Part shown: positions 15,990 to 26,866 of the stretch, one piece after another
Numbering within the stretch: position 1 is the first letter of the stretch
Layout of the letters: each line of letters opens with the position of its first letter
Origin: the human T2T-CHM13v2.0 reference genome, Homo sapiens
DNA: 64,000 nt
Assembly: GCA_009914755.4 (NCBI GenBank)
Contig: CP068257.2
Span: 6,944,001-7,008,000, forward strand
Reading direction: 5' to 3'
Translations under genes and position numbers: made by a program
Notes under the pieces: generated by a model
Told to the model about the DNA's origin: nothing
The model's database searches: none
What the model saw: only the letters and a program-made list of their open reading frames with translations

Positions 15990-16161
15990 TGAAGGAAGAT
16001 GCAAACTGTGCAGTATGCGACAGCCCGGGAGACCTCTTAGATCAGTTCTTTTGTACTACTTGTGGTCAGCACTATCATGGAATGTGCCTGGATATAGCGG
16101 TTACTCCATTAAAACTTGCAGGTTGGCAATGTCCTGAGTGCAAAGTGTGACAGAACTGCAA
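15990..16161 (+). pseudogene. KMT2C: KMT2C-like exon encoding PHD finger 2 (residues K339 to about C395 equivalent), with TGA replacing the last zinc-ligand Cys
   Basis: Translation: KEDANCAVCDSPGDLLDQFFCTTCGQHYHGMCLDIAVTPLKLAGWQCPECKV*QNCK. The stop is TGA at 16148-16150, in frame (a TGC-to-TGA change at the C391-equivalent codon). Donor gtaagt at 16162. The 5' boundary is uncertain because no AG sits at the phase-required position. Confidence 0.8.
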
Positions 16162-18014
16162 GTAAGTTTTCATTTCAATTCAAAGCTGTGTATTGGGTTT
16201 AAGAGGGACCCTATTACTAGGCGCTAAAAGTTTGTGTAATATAATAGAGGTTGTTCATATTTTGGCTGTATTCATTCAGAGTGACTTCATCATACTTAAA
16301 AAAATTACTGGATATTAACGTTTATATTATTTTGAAAGAAGTCTAAACAAAACTGATTTCAATCATTTAAATTGCTCTGATCGTCTAAAGAGCTAATTTA
16401 AATTTACCAACAGTTTAAAAAATAAGCGATATTAACAATTTAAAACAAGCATGAGAAGAATAAAGTAGCTTGTCTTCAGGTGCACCGGGGAGGGGATGTG
16501 ATAGGATTTAAACCTCTCACTACAGACGTAGAAGAATTAGAGTTGAGTCAAAACGTCAGTCATGTGTTTGAATTTCCATTCCAGGAAGGACGCTTTCTAC
16601 TATTATTTTAATGTACATCTGCATCTCTCTAAAAGCCACCTTGAGTAGATCCTGCTCAGCATAATTCCAAAATGAAATATGTGGCATTTACAAATTTATA
16701 AGGGGGTTATCTTTTCCTATTGTATTTCATCTCTTGGTCATTTCTCCAGTCTTTTCTGTGATTTCCGCTTGCACCCCCATGATTCTAATGAGCATGATAA
16801 TTTGGGGATGTTACCAGCATCTTCATTTACAGGCTGAGAATTTTTGTTGTAACCAGCAAGAATTATGCCCAACTGCCATGATCAGTCTGTTTTTATTATT
16901 TAGTTTTAAAAGAAATAAGCGTCAATATCTTAGAGTTACGTGACATAAATAGGACTATGTACCTTCATATTTTGGTAAAAATTAGATAAAATATTCAGTA
17001 AACATTTATTCGATACCTTGTATCTGCACTCAGTTTCTTGGGAAGGATTAAAAGAACTTGAAGGAAGAGTACTTGTCCTCCAAGATCTTTGCATGTAGCT
17101 GAAGAGATAAAACATGTGAGTTTTTATGGAGAGGTTGAACTGAATAATAATTGGAGGCCAACTGGCCCATCTTCCTGTTGACTTCTGTTTATCCCCCAGA
17201 TTTCATTCAGAGATTCCTCTCTCATCTCTTCTTGCTTTCCCTGTTTTTTCTCTTCCCCTCCTCTTGAATTTAAAATCATAGTATCTGAAAGTAATTATAG
17301 TCAAAAATCTCAACAGAGATAACGCTGTAGGACAGGGGCCCAATCTTTGGGGGCAGAAGAGTGTTTAAAGAAAGGTTTTAGGTTTTCAATTATAATTCTT
17401 AATAATTATGACAAGGTTCGTCTTTTGAAATAATTATTCAGCATTTAATTGCTTAATAGACATTCTAAGCACTTGAACCTGCATTACATTTAATTCTCAC
17501 AGTAATGTTTATTATTCCCGTTTTATACCTGAAACTCAGAGAGCTTTAGTCTAAGTTGTTTAGTGACACAGCTAGAAAACAGCAGCCTGAATACAAATAG
17601 AGATCTGATGCCAAATTTGATCCTCTTTACGTTATATGACAGTCTTTTCAATTTGCTGTGCCAAGATTTGATCTTTCCACACAGTAGCACATAGCAGTTA
17701 TAGCGCCTTCCTCTCAAAAATTATATTTTAAAAGTAAAGATCAAAGGCTATTCATCTTGCCTTAACCCTTCCTCCTTTGCAGGAATCCTAAAATGGCTAG
17801 AGCAAGTTAACCATAGGTGAGCATTGAGTAAAGATCACCATTTAGGAGGTAATCCTTATGGTAGGGTTACCTCTGTTACTATCTGCAGAGACAAAACAGA
17901 TACTGAGGTATTTATGAACTGTGCGGTTCCCAGGACTGATGATTTTCATGATTACTTATGTTGCAAAACATAAGTTTAAAGATAAGCCATCATTAATGCT
18001 ATCTTACTTTTTAG

Positions 18015-18129
18015 ACAATCGGGAGAAGATAGCAAGATGCTAGTGTGTGATACGTGTGACAAAGGGTATCATACTTTTTGTCTTCAACGAATTATGAAAT
18101 CTGTACCAACCAATGGCTGGAAATGCAAA
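18015..18129 (+). CDS. KMT2C: KMT2C-like exon, start of the next PHD finger
   Basis: Acceptor ctttttag at 18007-18014, donor gtaagt at 18130. With the 2-nt carry-over it reads (K)QSGEDSKMLVCDTCDKGYHTFCLQRIMKSVPTNGWKCK. Phase is [14 protein letters not shown] the previous exon. Confidence 0.85.
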
Positions 18130-18639
18130 GTAAGTTGTTTACTTTTTTAAATCCTCTGTATGTTTTATATGGAGAACAGACAAATCGGATATCTATTCAA
18201 ATCTATACATTACCATCAGCTTTTTAAAAACAGCTTTATTGACATATAACTGACATACAGTAAACTGTACACTCTTCAAGATAATGAACATAGTCATCAC
18301 CGTCAAAGTTTCCTGGTGCCTCTTGGCTTGCTTTGTGGCTGTTCAAACCCAAACCCTCTGTCTTCCTAGTCTGCTTTTTCACTATAGATTAGTATTCACT
18401 TCCTAGAATTTTTAATAAAAGCTTCATATAGTATATACTCGTTTTTGGTCTGGCTTCTTTAACTCAGTGTAATTATTTTGAAATGCATCTCTATTGCTGC
18501 ACAGATCAGTAGTGATTCTTTTGTATTACTGAGTGCTGGAGATACCACAATTTGTTTATTGAATCACCTGTTGGTGAACATTTGGGTCCTTTAAAATTTT
18601 GATCTATTATAAAAAATGCCGATGAACTCATTAACTAAC

Positions 18640-19060
18640 TTCCTACCTCACTTGGCTTCTGCCCCTTCAGGGGGAGGTGTTCAGAGCCAGGTTGGGGGCA
18701 GTGGGGTAGTGGAGATAGCCCTTGGAATCCAAGGTGCGGTTTAGCTTTTAAGCTTAGTCTTCCTGGGCTGCTGGTGTCGCGAGGTTGAGGGATGGAGATG
18801 ACCCTCAGGTGCTGCATGGGCCTGGAGCGTGTTCTCCCTGGAGCTGGAGAGGGCGTGATGGCCCGTGTGCGGGAGTGGAAGGCACAGCATTGTCATTGCC
18901 CTTCTCGGAACTGCTTTTTCTAGGGAGGAGGTGGAGGGCCTGGGAAAGGAGGATGATGTCGCCAGAACCCCAGGTCCCTGGCGTGGGGAGGAGGTGGGAG
19001 CAGACTCAGAGAGATTCTGTACCTGCACCCTGTCCTCGCCAGTGAGGTTTGGCACCTAGA
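18640..19060. other. Unexplained GC-rich block of ~420 bp (~60% GC, several CpGs) inside otherwise AT-rich intron-like sequence
   Basis: Overlapping stop-free ORFs of 60-104 aa on both strands (18741..19055, 18785..19045, 18865..19059, 18920..19102). These are typical of GC-rich non-coding DNA. I could not match the block to Alu, L1, SVA or LTR signatures. Confidence 0.3.
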
Positions 19061-24727: not shown

Positions 24728-25231
24728 ATTATGTGTCTTTTGACTTTGTTTTTATTATTTTTTTTGCCATGCAAAAGTTTCTTTTTGTGGAGTTAGATTT
24801 ATTAATCTTCTTTTGCTTCTATATTTTTGAGTCATATTCAGAAAGCCTTTCCCTACACTGAGGGTATAGAGGACACAGATAGTCTTCTCATTGCTGGTAA
24901 GCAGTATGTTCATATTGTCTAATTTGATTGAGTTATAAGATAATGTCTTTATCCCAAAGACATTTTTGCAATTGCTGTATGTATATACATTACAGTAACT
25001 AAATCTTTTAGTTAAGAGATTCTGGAAAAGAATTGACAATGGATCTAAAGTAGGTTAGTTTCTCTTGTAAGGCTTTTTTTTTTTGGAGGGGGGATGTCAT
25101 GATTAAAAATATTTTGTACTATCAGATCTGTTATTTGGTAGTTTTCTTTATCCTTACCTGTAGTCTTTCAATAAAGTGGGAAAGAAGATGAGATTTCAGT
25201 TTGGTATCAGTTTGGCATCAGAACATGTATA

Positions 25232-25440
25232 GGCCTGGGCAATATAGCGAGACCCTATCTCTACAAAAACAAAAAAATTATCTGGACATGGTGACACATG
25301 CCTGCAGTCCCAGCAGCTTGGGAGGCTGAAGTGGGAGGACCACTTGAGCCCAGGAGGTTGAGGCTGCAGTGAGCCATGTTTGTGCTACTGCACTCCAGCT
25401 TGGGTCACAGAGTGAGATCCTGTTTCAAAAAAAAAAAAAG
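25232..25440 (+). mobile_element. Partial Alu (right-arm/FRAM-like), sense
   Basis: cctgggcaatatagcgagaccctatctctacaaaaacaaaaaaattatctggacatggtgacacatgcctgcagtcccagc...gcactccagcttgggtcacagagtgagatcctgtttcaaaaaaaaaaaa. Confidence 0.8.
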
Positions 25441-26165
25441 AACATAGATAAATAGATAAATTTTAGTCACTGATTGGTAAATGAGGCTAGCAGTGTCTTT
25501 TTACTATAACTTAAAAATTACCTTGATGAGATTGAGTTAAAGGTTTAACATACTGGTATCCTGATTTAAAATTTACTGGTGACTATGTTTCTGATATCTA
25601 AGTTTATAGATTTCCTGAGATTAGTCTTTTAATTTACAGACAATGATGAAGAACAACGATTATATCCAAAGAATATTTTGGCTAGGTTGGCAGGTATGGT
25701 TAAGCAAAATAAATATTGGTGGTTAGCAAATCTTTTCTGTCTGTGCTTTTGAGTCTATAGTAATTTGTCGCATCTGGGTATCTACTATTAGAAAATGCCT
25801 ACACATTCTAGATCAGTCTTTACTTTTTAACTTAGGTACCTCACATAACATGATTGATCCTCATTTTCTTAACTAAAAAATGAGTATGAGAACTTTTCCT
25901 GTGTAATTTTCAATCCATTTGGAAGTACTTGTGTTGTAAAACATGTTTTCATTAGGTTTTCTGGTGTGTGGCTGATTCTAATCCATAAATCCTTGTGTAC
26001 TTTGGCTTTCATTCACTTAATAATTGTCTGCTTTGATGAATACCTTCTGATTTAAGTTCTAGTGTAGTCAAATGTTTTATATATCTATAGTTAGAAAATT
26101 TAAAATTTGTTTGTACATTACCATAACAAATGTTCTGAATTTTGTAATATCATCCCAACATACAG

Positions 26166-26866
26166 TGAATACCGAATTGGAAAAACAGATTTCTAATGAG
26201 GCTGATAGTGAAGAAATGAAAATGTCTTCTGAAGTGAAGCATATTTGTGGTGAAGATCAAATTGAAGATAAAATGGAAGTGACAGAAAACATTGAAGTCG
26301 TTACACACCAGATCACTGTGCAGCAAGAGCAACTGCAGTTGTTAGAGGAACCTAAAACAGTGGTATCCAAAGAAGAATCAAGGCCTCCAAAATTTGTCAT
26401 TGAATCTGTCACTCTTCCACTAGAAACCTTAGTGTCCCCACATGAGGAAAGCACTTCATTATGTCCTGAGGAACAGTTGGTTATAGAAAGGCTACAAGGA
26501 GAATAGGAACAGAAAGAAGATTCTGAACTTTCTACTGGACTGATGGACTCTGAAATGACTCCTACAATTGAGGGTTGTGTGAAAGATGTTTCATACCAAG
26601 GAGGCAAATCTATAAAGTTATCATCTGGGACAGAGTCATCATTTTCATTATCAGCAGACATAAGCAAGGCAGATGTGTCTTCCTCACCAACACCTTCTTC
26701 AGACTTGCCTTCGCATGACATGCTGCATAATTACCCTTCAGCTCTTAGTTCCTCTGCTGGAAACATCATGCCAACAACTTACATCTCAGTCACTCCAAAA
26801 ATTGGCATGGGTAAACCAGCTATTACTAAGAGAAAATTTTCTCCTAGTAGACCTCGGTCCAAACAG
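26166..26866 (+). pseudogene. KMT2C: KMT2C-like large exon (exon-14 equivalent, 701 nt) interrupted by an in-frame TAG
   Basis: Acceptor cccaacatacag at 26154-26165, donor gtagggtg at 26867. Translation: ...NTELEKQISNEADSEEMKMSSEVKHICGEDQIEDKMEVTENIEVVTHQITVQQEQLQLLEEPKTVVSKEESRPPKFVIESVTLPLETLVSPHEESTSLCPEEQLVIERLQGE*EQKEDSELSTGLMDSEMTPTIEGCVKDVSYQGGKSIKLSSGTESSFSLSADISKADVSSSPTPSSDLPSHDMLHNYPSALSSSAGNIMPTTYISVTPKIGMGKPAITKRKFSPSRPRSKQ. The stop is TAG at 26504-26506 and the frame is continuous on both sides (ORFs 26072..26506 and 26543..26875 share a frame). Confidence 0.85.

What the first reader, a model, noticed from the sequence alone, without database searches (positions are those of the whole stretch)
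16148..26506. KMT2C (MLL3)-derived paralog carrying two nonsense codons at conserved positions: a pseudogene copy that can masquerade as KMT2C truncating variants
The exon-like blocks translate to clean KMT2C PHD-finger sequence, but two in-frame stops occur. TGA at 16148-16150 replaces the final Cys of PHD2 (...CPECKV*QNCK; the C391-equivalent TGC to TGA change). TAG at 26504-26506 lies inside the large exon (...VIERLQGE*EQKEDSELS...), near the position of the recurrent Y816* call. The 7308 exon also has Ser where I recall Thr316 in KMT2C (GASSFQD). From established knowledge, a fragment of MLL3 was duplicated to juxtacentromeric regions (chromosomes 21 and 13, among others) and generated the BAGE genes. 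Recurrent 'KMT2C' nonsense and missense calls such as p.C391*, p.Y816* and p.T316S are known mapping artefacts from these paralogs. This window appears to be such a paralog.
Basis: partly seen in the sequence, partly recalled or inferred. Interest (0 to 1): 0.75.

Follow-up and report, generated by a model that had tools for sequence, protein, structure and literature searches.

The report
Disabled partial copy of KMT2C
This stretch is a dead, intron-containing partial duplicate of the human cancer and autism gene KMT2C; it is already a known kind of sequence, and its three stop codons are exactly the "truncating KMT2C mutations" that sequencing studies report by mistake when reads from such copies are mapped onto the real gene.

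Summary
The window is an unprocessed, human partial duplicate of KMT2C (MLL3).

- **Exons present:** equivalents of exons 7, 8, 9 and 14-18 (7308-44778), with introns in place and co-linear with published chr7 coordinates.
- **Similarity:** exons are 97.0-98.2% identical to real KMT2C cDNA, and dN/dS is 0.58.
- **Why it is dead:** there are three in-frame stops. Exons 10-13 (514 nt) are missing. The acceptors of exons 8 and 14 read GG and AA.
- **Correction:** the TAG is K724*, 92 codons from Y816, and Y816 is intact here. Y816* (c.2447dupA) sits in sister copies, which carry other lesions of their own (E728*, Q755*, a frameshift near codon 823).
- **Real DNA, not error:** the truncated 144-aa exon-14 ORF occurs exactly in 17 contigs from public sequencing-run assemblies. 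Sister copies occur in human gut metagenome assemblies.
- **Literature:** all three stops are published as KMT2C variants in autism, cancer and gnomAD papers.
- **Neighbour:** downstream on the minus strand lies an unrelated CCDC144C/ANKRD20A-like pseudogene fragment, which suggests a mosaic of duplications.

The phenomenon is already known (BAGE/MLL3 duplications; GIAB and T2T papers). The chromosome could not be determined.

The parts
7308..7470 (+). KMT2C exon-7 equivalent (c.850-1012). Acceptor AG and donor GT are intact. It carries c.871C>T L291F, c.943G>A G315S and c.946A>T T316S. All three changes are silent in the +1 (BAGE) frame.
   Evidence: Pfam zf-HC5HC2H hit.
15990..16161 (+). KMT2C exon-8 equivalent (c.1013-1184). 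It carries S338L, V346V and R380L, plus the stop c.1173C>A C391* (TGA at 16148-16150). c.1013C>T also puts a TGA at the first codon of the BAGE frame.
15988..15989 (+). Exon-8 splice acceptor reads GG. Nine sister paralog contigs have AG at this position.
18015..18129 (+). KMT2C exon-9 equivalent (c.1185-1299) with P420R, V421I and S424S. These three changes are shared by all nine sister contigs that cover the exon.
18130..26147 (+). Interval that should hold exons 10-13 (c.1300-1813, 514 nt). No match to them exists anywhere in the window. The interval is about 6.4 kb shorter than on chr7, and the same structure is seen in sister copy L015.
   Evidence: hg19 coordinates taken.
26146..26147 (+). 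Exon-14 acceptor position reads AA. A canonical AG is expected in the real gene; that expectation is an inference.
   Evidence: The exon start at c.1814 agrees with the published variant c.1736-2A>G and the stated exon 13.
26148..26866 (+). KMT2C exon-14 equivalent (c.1814-2532). It shows 19 differences over the 625 nt for which cDNA was available, including c.2170A>T K724* (TAG at 26504-26506), N729D, E765G and S772L. G838S lies beyond the cDNA. Y816 is intact.
35879..35998 (+). Exon-15 equivalent (codons 845-884) with G845E, E864G and R866Q, judged at protein level.
38757..38873 (+). Exon-16 equivalent (codons 885-923) with R886H and G892R, plus a third in-frame stop, TGA at 38793-38795 (c.2689C>T, R897*).
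44380..44481 (+). Exon-17 equivalent (codons 924-957) with N942T.
44674..44778 (+). Exon-18 equivalent (codons 958-992) with S990G. Y987 and C988 are intact. This is the last KMT2C-like exon found in the window.

Best explanation
The window is one member of the human family of partial, intron-containing (segmental-duplication) copies of KMT2C/MLL3, the family from which the BAGE genes arose. It covers the equivalents of KMT2C exons 7-9 and 14-18.

It cannot make KMT2C protein, for four reasons:
- It has three nonsense codons: C391*, K724* and R897*.
- It lacks exons 10-13. Their 514 nt are not a multiple of three, so splicing exon 9 to exon 14 would shift the frame.
- The acceptor sites of exons 8 and 14 are altered.
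- It contains none of the remaining KMT2C exons.

Its practical effect is technical. It is only about 2-3% diverged from KMT2C in exons. Short reads from it, or from sister copies, align to chr7 KMT2C when the reference lacks the copy, and they produce low-fraction calls of its private differences, including the three stops.

Shown here: the structure, the divergence, the disabling lesions, the existence of the copy and its sisters in independent public data, and nucleotide identity with published 'KMT2C variants'.

Inferred: that those published calls really came from this copy, and that the copy lies in a pericentromeric or acrocentric region.
For: 1. Human KMT2C references: PDB 2YSM and transcript contigs L013/L014. 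The exons match at 98.2, 98.2, 97.4 and 97.0% identity, with 29 differences in all, 20 nonsynonymous and 9 synonymous, and dN/dS 0.58.
2. cDNA positions 76-589 of L014 (exons 10-13) have no match in the window.
3. Exon spacing is co-linear with published hg19 positions. T316S to C391* is 8,746 bp here against 8,722 on chr7. S772L to G838S is 197 against 197. S772L to R897* is 12,144 against 12,222. Exon 7 to exon 14 is about 6.4 kb shorter.
4. The acceptor GG at exon 8 compares with AG in nine sister contigs.
5. The exact truncated ORF occurs in 17 contigs from public-run assemblies; L001 is 99.87% identical.
6. Sister copies from human gut metagenome assemblies are co-linear at 98.2% over 20.7 kb, share the exon 10-13 gap, and have TGC at codon 391.
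7. In exon 14, 14 sites separate all copies from KMT2C, and different copies carry different lesions: K724*, E728*, Q755*, Y816* by c.2447dupA, and a frameshift near codon 823.
8. The 22 Alu elements indicate a primate genome. Gorilla and chimpanzee KMT2C-like models lack several window changes that the human model P0165 shares.
9. Literature: the MLL3/BAGE duplications; missing KMT2C-like sequence causing false positives; and the same stops and missense changes reported as KMT2C variants.
Against: - No human genome assembly could be searched, so the map position was not determined.
- The exon-8 haplotype (R380L with C391*) was absent from all 10 metagenome contigs that matched that exon. The copy is therefore either rare, copy-number variable or under-assembled.
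- C391* is reported at low population frequency, 31 alleles in one gnomAD group. That is not what a fixed copy mis-mapping in everyone would give unless filters remove most such calls.
- The reference residues for exons 15-18 rest on paralog and ape protein models plus my recalled KMT2C sequence, not on a KMT2C cDNA.
Confidence: 0.93

Rival explanations
1. The window is the genuine 7q36.1 KMT2C locus, and the stops are sequencing errors or real nonsense alleles.
For: The exons, introns and spacing are KMT2C-like.
Against: - There are 29 exonic differences in 1,075 nt, and exons 10-13 are absent.
- There are three stops and two altered acceptors.
- No KMT2C exon is found after exon 18, although 19 kb of window follow it.
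- An unrelated CCDC144C-type pseudogene lies where exon 19 would be expected.
- The same haplotype recurs in independent runs.
Confidence: 0.01
2. The window is a KMT2C-like paralog from a non-human ape (chimpanzee, bonobo or gorilla) rather than from human.
For: Gorillas, chimpanzees and bonobos have KMT2C-like and BAGE3 models. The species of the Logan runs is not given.
Against: - Gorilla copies keep L687, N729, S772, E864, R886 and G892, where the window and the contigs from human gut metagenomes have F, D, L, G, H and R.
- The chimpanzee model P0168 keeps G892.
- The human model P0165 shares G845E, E864G, R886H, G892R and N942T with the window.
- The window's private changes equal variants called in human exomes.
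Confidence: 0.04
3. The copy is not merely dead DNA. It is the 3' part of a transcribed BAGE-family gene in which the exon-7 equivalent is translated in the +1 frame.
For: - In the +1 frame, exon 7 reads DVHFVSTLEPL...TKLLKD, identical over 54 of 54 residues to the human 'B melanoma antigen 3-like' protein P0155.
- All three exon-7 substitutions are silent in that frame and missense in the KMT2C frame.
- A cited paper title states that BAGE genes are under selective pressure (reference 24).
Against: - The BAGE N-terminal exon (MAA...GTAL) is not in the 7.3 kb upstream, and Pfam finds no BAGE domain in the window's +1-frame ORF over exon 7.
- In exon 8 the acceptor is GG and the first BAGE-frame codon is TGA, so the usual 16-residue tail is lost.
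- Three silent changes are too few for a test of selection.
- No expression data were available.
Confidence: 0.2
4. The window is a processed (retrotransposed) KMT2C pseudogene.
For: None beyond the homology to KMT2C.
Against: The exons are separated by 2-18 kb of intron-like sequence, with GT donors and mostly AG acceptors, at the same spacing as on chr7.
Confidence: 0.005

Closest known systems
KMT2C (MLL3) at 7q36.1, exons 7-18
   Same: Same exon order, exon lengths and reading frame. Introns are of similar length. Exons are 97.0-98.2% identical in nucleotides, and the PHD-finger sequences are recognised by Pfam and by PDB 2YSM.
   Different: Three nonsense codons, exons 10-13 missing, the acceptors of exons 8 and 14 altered, no exons outside 7-18, and dN/dS of 0.58.
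BAGE-family loci and MLL3-derived juxtacentromeric duplications (chromosomes 9, 13, 18, 21; Ruault et al. 2003, as cited in PMC4041455)
   Same: An MLL3 genomic fragment duplicated with its introns. The exon-7 equivalent encodes, in the +1 frame, the BAGE2/3-type C-terminal segment, identical to human BAGE3-like P0155. Ape BAGE3 proteins end with the +1-frame reading of exons 7-8.
   Different: The BAGE first coding exon and Pfam BAGE domain are not within the window. The exon-8 part of the BAGE reading frame is broken here.
Sister KMT2C-like copies seen in human-derived assemblies, and the human Gnomon model XP_016884010.1 (P0165)
   Same: 98-99% identical and co-linear over up to 20.7 kb. 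They share the exon 10-13 gap, the 14 family-wide exon-14 substitutions, P420R/V421I, and G845E/E864G/R886H/G892R/N942T.
   Different: Each copy has its own lesions. The window has C391*, R380L, S338L, the GG acceptor, K724*, E765G, R866Q, R897* and S990G. Others have E728*, Q755*, Y816* (c.2447dupA) or a frameshift near codon 823, or have no stop in exon 14.
KMT2C-like sequences missing from GRCh37/38 that cause false-positive calls (GIAB medically relevant genes benchmark; T2T-CHM13 variation paper)
   Same: The same phenomenon. The papers attribute 1,191 false positives in KMT2C (removed by the hs37d5 decoy) and most HiFi false positives to duplicated KMT2C sequence absent from the reference.
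   Different: Those papers do not list individual copies or their stops in the text I could read. Whether this window is one of the missing copies or the annotated chr21 copy is not known.

Membership tests
Functional KMT2C gene | Uninterrupted reading frame across the exons | tested here: not met
   In-frame TGA at 16148-16150, TAG at 26504-26506 and TGA at 38793-38795.
Functional KMT2C gene | All coding exons present | tested here: not met
   Exons 10-13 (cDNA L014 positions 76-589) and all exons after 18 have no match in the window.
Functional KMT2C gene | Canonical splice sites | tested here: not met
   The exon-8 acceptor is GG, against AG in nine sister contigs. The exon-14 acceptor position is AA. 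The other sites are canonical.
Unprocessed (segmental-duplication) KMT2C/MLL3 paralog | Introns retained and co-linear with the parent gene | tested here: met
   Eight exon equivalents lie in the right order. Their spacing matches published hg19 coordinates within tens of bases, except for the 6.4-kb loss.
Unprocessed (segmental-duplication) KMT2C/MLL3 paralog | High but imperfect identity to the parent, with relaxed constraint | tested here: met
   97.0-98.2% exon identity, 20 nonsynonymous against 9 synonymous differences, dN/dS 0.58.
Unprocessed (segmental-duplication) KMT2C/MLL3 paralog | Multiple near-identical copies in the same genome | tested here: met
   Distinct sister haplotypes at 98-99% identity in human-derived contigs.
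Unprocessed (segmental-duplication) KMT2C/MLL3 paralog | Location in juxtacentromeric or acrocentric regions outside 7q36.1 | not testable with these tools
   No human assembly is searchable. The only indirect support is the adjacent unrelated CCDC144C-type pseudogene and the literature.
BAGE gene family | N-terminal BAGE exon (Pfam PF08180; MAA...PEDGTAL) | tested here: not met
   tblastn with the recalled BAGE peptide finds nothing in the window. Pfam found no family (hence no PF08180) in the window's +1-frame ORF over exon 7. The exon could lie further upstream than the 7.3 kb available.
BAGE gene family | C-terminal segment encoded by MLL3 exon 7 read in the +1 frame | tested here: met
   54 of 54 residues are identical to human BAGE3-like P0155, and 94-96% identical overall to ape BAGE3.
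BAGE gene family | BAGE2/3 tail (RRKMQTVQCATARETS) from MLL3 exon 8 in the +1 frame | tested here: not met
   The first codon is TGA, there is a Cys to Tyr change, and the acceptor is GG.
Processed pseudogene | Intronless cDNA-like copy | tested here: not met
   Exons are separated by 1.8-9 kb with splice signals.

The most novel reading that the evidence does not exclude
One physical copy, the haplotype in this window, may be the single source of three nonsense 'KMT2C variants': c.1173C>A C391*, c.2170A>T K724* and c.2689C>T R897*. These still appear in autism loss-of-function tables, in a gnomAD-based pathogenicity survey and in cancer reports.

The copy may be absent from GRCh37/38 and vary in copy number between people. 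That would explain the low and ancestry-skewed frequency of C391*. It would also explain why the exon-8 haplotype was missing from all 10 metagenome contigs while sister copies are common.
Probability: 0.45. Interest if true: 0.45.

Novelty: already known. Interest (0 to 1): 0.25.

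Why it matters
KMT2C is one of the most often "mutated" genes in cancer panels and is a neurodevelopmental disease gene (Kleefstra syndrome 2).

This window shows concretely that C391*, K724* and R897* are the germline sequence of a dead duplicate. The same holds for L291F, G315S, T316S, S338L, R380L, N729D, E765G, S772L, G838S and R866Q. 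Sister copies supply E728*, Q755* and Y816*. Papers found here still list several of these as pathogenic or disease-associated.

The window also gives a simple read-level test. A paralog-derived stop is linked in cis to nearby paralog-specific bases:
- C391* lies 34 bp from c.1139T.
- K724* lies 15 bp from c.2185G.
- R897* lies 15 bp from the G892R change.

No new biology is implied.

Tried and rejected
- **BAGE first exon.** tblastn with the recalled BAGE1/2 peptide found no BAGE N-terminal exon in the window.
- **BAGE2 from memory.** My recalled BAGE2 sequence ('EPTAF', 'QCAT') did not match the database BAGE3 proteins ('EPAPF'), so I used the database sequences instead.
- **Human BAGE3-like locus.** The look-up of P0155 found nothing on record.
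- **Exon 7 and 8 ORFs.** Exact look-ups of these window ORFs found nothing in the protein collection, probably because of start-codon choice or length. The C391* haplotype therefore could not be traced the way K724* was.
- **Metagenome scan across R380/C391.** It returned 10 contigs, all sister paralogs with the reference alleles. It returned no true KMT2C contig and no C391* contig. As a result I could not read the real intron sequence, could not place the breakpoints of the exon 10-13 deletion, and could not place the 3' end of KMT2C homology (somewhere in 44.8-47.7 kb).
- **Literature search with 'C391' inside words.** It mostly matched PMC identifiers.
- **Rfam and tandem repeats.** Nothing relevant came up.
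- **Rejected explanations.** True KMT2C locus, processed pseudogene and non-human ape paralog; see the rival explanations.

Full report
**Observation.** TGA at 16148-16150 lies in ...WQCPECKV*QNCK, and TAG at 26504-26506 lies in ...VIERLQGE*EQKEDSELS. The exon at 7308-7470 reads ...CAAGASSFQDF.... Pfam recognises PHD and zf-HC5HC2H domains in them.

**Reference for the real gene.** Three tool-derived references were used.
- The solved human MLL3 tandem-PHD structure 2YSM.
- A transcript contig encoding the KMT2C N-terminus (P0006/L013).
- A transcript contig running from the end of exon 9 through most of exon 14 (P0002/L014).

A KMT2C sequence recalled from memory served only as a lead. It reproduces the residue numbers used in the literature (L291, G315, T316, R380, C391, K724, S772, Y816, G838, Y987, C988).

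**Exon map**. All exons are on the + strand.

| Exon equivalent | Window coordinates |
|---|---|
| 7 | 7308-7470 |
| 8 | 15990-16161 |
| 9 | 18015-18129 |
| 14 | 26148-26866 |
| 15 | 35879-35998 |
| 16 | 38757-38873 |
| 17 | 44380-44481 |
| 18 | 44674-44778 |

The exons are separated by intron-like sequence containing 22 Alu elements. This is therefore an unprocessed copy in a primate genome.

Nucleotide identity to KMT2C cDNA is 98.2% for exon 7, 98.2% for exon 8, 97.4% for exon 9 and 97.0% for exon 14. In all there are 29 differences in about 1,075 nt, of which 20 are nonsynonymous and 9 synonymous. dN/dS is 0.58 and dS is 0.041.

Independent numbering from the cDNA gives these changes:
- c.871C>T L291F, c.943G>A G315S, c.946A>T T316S.
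- c.1013C>T S338L, c.1139G>T R380L, c.1173C>A C391*.
- c.1259C>G P420R, c.1261G>A V421I.
- c.2170A>T K724*, c.2185A>G N729D, c.2294A>G E765G, c.2315C>T S772L, among others.

G838S (26846) follows from co-linearity with the published positions.

The TAG is codon 724 (AAG in KMT2C), not a site near Y816. Y816 is an intact TAC in ...NIMPTTYISVTP....

**Further disabling lesions.**
The human paralog model XP_016884010.1 and the gorilla and chimpanzee KMT2C-like models all have Arg there. By position it is c.2689C>T, R897*.
- Exons 10-13 are absent. The 514 nt of cDNA between exon 9 and exon 14 have no match. The exon 7 to exon 14 distance is about 6.4 kb shorter than the published hg19 coordinates imply. 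Because 514 is not a multiple of three, an exon 9 to exon 14 splice would shift the frame.
- The exon-8 acceptor is GG, where nine sister copies have AG.
- The dinucleotide before exon 14 is AA. That the real gene has AG there is an inference.
- No KMT2C exon beyond exon 18 is found in the remaining 19 kb.

**Real DNA, and one of a family.**
- The 144-aa ORF that ends at the TAG is present, residue for residue, in 17 contigs from Logan assemblies of public sequencing runs; the 10 listed each come from a different run. L001 is 99.87% identical to the window over 2,352 bp and identical throughout exon 14.
- Cluster members and their contigs reveal sister copies, many from assemblies labelled human gut metagenome, that is, host DNA.
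- L015 is co-linear with window 16047-36803 at 98.2% in one alignment. The exon 10-13 gap therefore predates the spread of the copies. L015 has TGC at codon 391.
- In exon 14, 14 sites separate every copy from KMT2C. On top of these, different copies carry different lesions: K724* (this copy), E728* (c.2182G>T), Q755*, Y816* through c.2447dupA, and a frameshift near codon 823. Some copies have none.
- In exon 8 the window has five private changes, including C391*. None of 10 metagenome contigs shares them.

**Species.**
- Gorilla KMT2C-like models share some family substitutions but keep the ancestral residue at L687, N729, S772, E864, R886 and G892.
- The chimpanzee model keeps G892.
- The human model P0165 shares G845E, E864G, R886H, G892R and N942T with the window.

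Together with the match to variants called in human exomes, this makes a human origin the likely one.

**Relation to BAGE.** KMT2C exons 7-8 read in the +1 frame give DVHFVSTLEPL...TKLLKDRRKMQTVQCATARETS*. This is the C-terminal 70 residues of bonobo and gorilla BAGE3.
- The window's exon 7 gives the identical 54 residues, as does the human 'B melanoma antigen 3-like' protein.
- Its three substitutions are all silent in that frame and missense in the KMT2C frame.
- In exon 8 the BAGE frame begins with TGA and the acceptor is lost.
- The BAGE N-terminal exon is not in the 7.3 kb upstream.

The window is therefore of the same MLL3-derived stock as the BAGE genes. It cannot be shown to be a BAGE gene.

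**Surroundings.** On the minus strand between about 55.8 and 49.3 kb lie fragments of a coiled-coil protein of the CCDC144C type (Pfam PF14915).
- Profile positions 124-277, 276-425 and 426-478 appear in genomic order.
- There is a frame break near 51,250 and an intron-sized gap.

This is a second, unrelated pseudogene fragment. From my own knowledge the family (ANKRD20A/ANKRD26/CCDC144) is typical of pericentromeric duplications. It sits where KMT2C exon 19 would be expected. That suggests a mosaic of duplicated segments rather than 7q36.1, although the real KMT2C intron 18 could not be inspected. KMT2C homology must end between 44.8 and about 47.7 kb.

**Literature.**
- The GIAB benchmark preprint attributes 1,191 false positives in KMT2C to sequence absent from GRCh37. 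It also attributes 277 of 386 HiFi false positives to KMT2C parts duplicated relative to GRCh37/38.

Meanwhile the window's differences are published as KMT2C variants:
- L291F, T316S, S772L and G838S in a cell line, with hg19 positions whose spacing equals the window's.
- G315S, R380L and R866Q in gastric remnant carcinoma.
- c.1173C>A C391* at 7:151962134 in an autism list, in gnomAD (31 alleles) and in COSMIC.
- c.2170A>T K724* at 0.83% allele fraction in a prostate cancer case.
- c.2689C>T R897* at 7:151932982 in an autism list, and as a 'pathogenic' germline stop-gain.
- Q755*, the stop of a sister copy, in the same autism table.

I found no paper that names C391* itself as an artefact.

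**Mechanism.** The copy has no plausible KMT2C function. It matters because of read mis-mapping. A 100-150-base read from it differs from chr7 at only two to four positions. Where the reference lacks the copy, the read aligns confidently to KMT2C and contributes a low-fraction 'variant'. That this happened in the cited studies is inferred, not shown.

**Verdict.** Three adjustments apply:
- There are three stops, not two.
- The second stop is K724*, not near Y816*.
- The chromosomal location remains untested.

The phenomenon is already known, so the interest is practical rather than biological.

Noticed in passing
window 49263-55846, minus strand (ORFs 51247-51684 and 50814-51182; further pieces at 49263-49406 and 55703-55846): Fragments of a CCDC144C-type coiled-coil gene (Pfam PF14915, E-values 8e-53, 2e-52 and 9e-13). 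They lie in profile order, with a frame break near 51,250 and an intron-sized gap. The 55703-55846 piece gave no PF14915 hit and is included on resemblance only. This is an unprocessed ANKRD20A/CCDC144-like pseudogene fragment next to the KMT2C-derived segment.
   Followed up: partly
sister loci L021-L023, L024-L026, L015/L016; proteins P0136/P0144: Sister KMT2C-like copies carry their own exon-14 lesions: c.2447dupA (Y816*), c.2182G>T (E728*), a T>A change plus a 1-base insertion near codon 823 (frameshift), and Q755*. Q755* is listed as an autism variant in PMC10767577.
   Followed up: partly
window about 14652-15028: A segment containing an Alu (14659-14933) is present in the window and in L033/L036 but absent from sister contigs L027, L028 and L035. 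It is an insertion or deletion difference between copies.
   Followed up: no
window 28861-29428: A segment of about 570 bp is present in the window and in L015-L018 but absent from sister contigs L019 and L020. Its nature was not examined.
   Followed up: no
protein P0136 (cluster 2): This exon-14 ORF has real-KMT2C residues at its start (EVDSEDLK) and paralog residues afterwards (EEPKTVVSKEES, KFVIES). It is either gene conversion between KMT2C and a copy or a chimeric short-read assembly.
   Followed up: no
window 59348-60670, minus strand: Two ORFs (157 and 214 aa) look to me like the C-terminal part of LINE-1 ORF2. Pfam gave no hit. The tail ...FMSFVGTWMKLEIIILSKLSQEQKTKHRIFSLIGGN resembles the L1-derived end of the human BAGE3-like protein P0155.
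   Followed up: no
window 24537-24711 and 25249-25417: Two partial Alu fragments lie within 1.6 kb upstream of exon 14, roughly where the 3' breakpoint of the exon 10-13 deletion should be. An Alu-mediated deletion is possible but untested.
   Followed up: no
window 2510-2568 and 49089-49197: An (AT)n microsatellite of 29.5 repeats, and a two-copy 54-bp tandem duplication.
   Followed up: no
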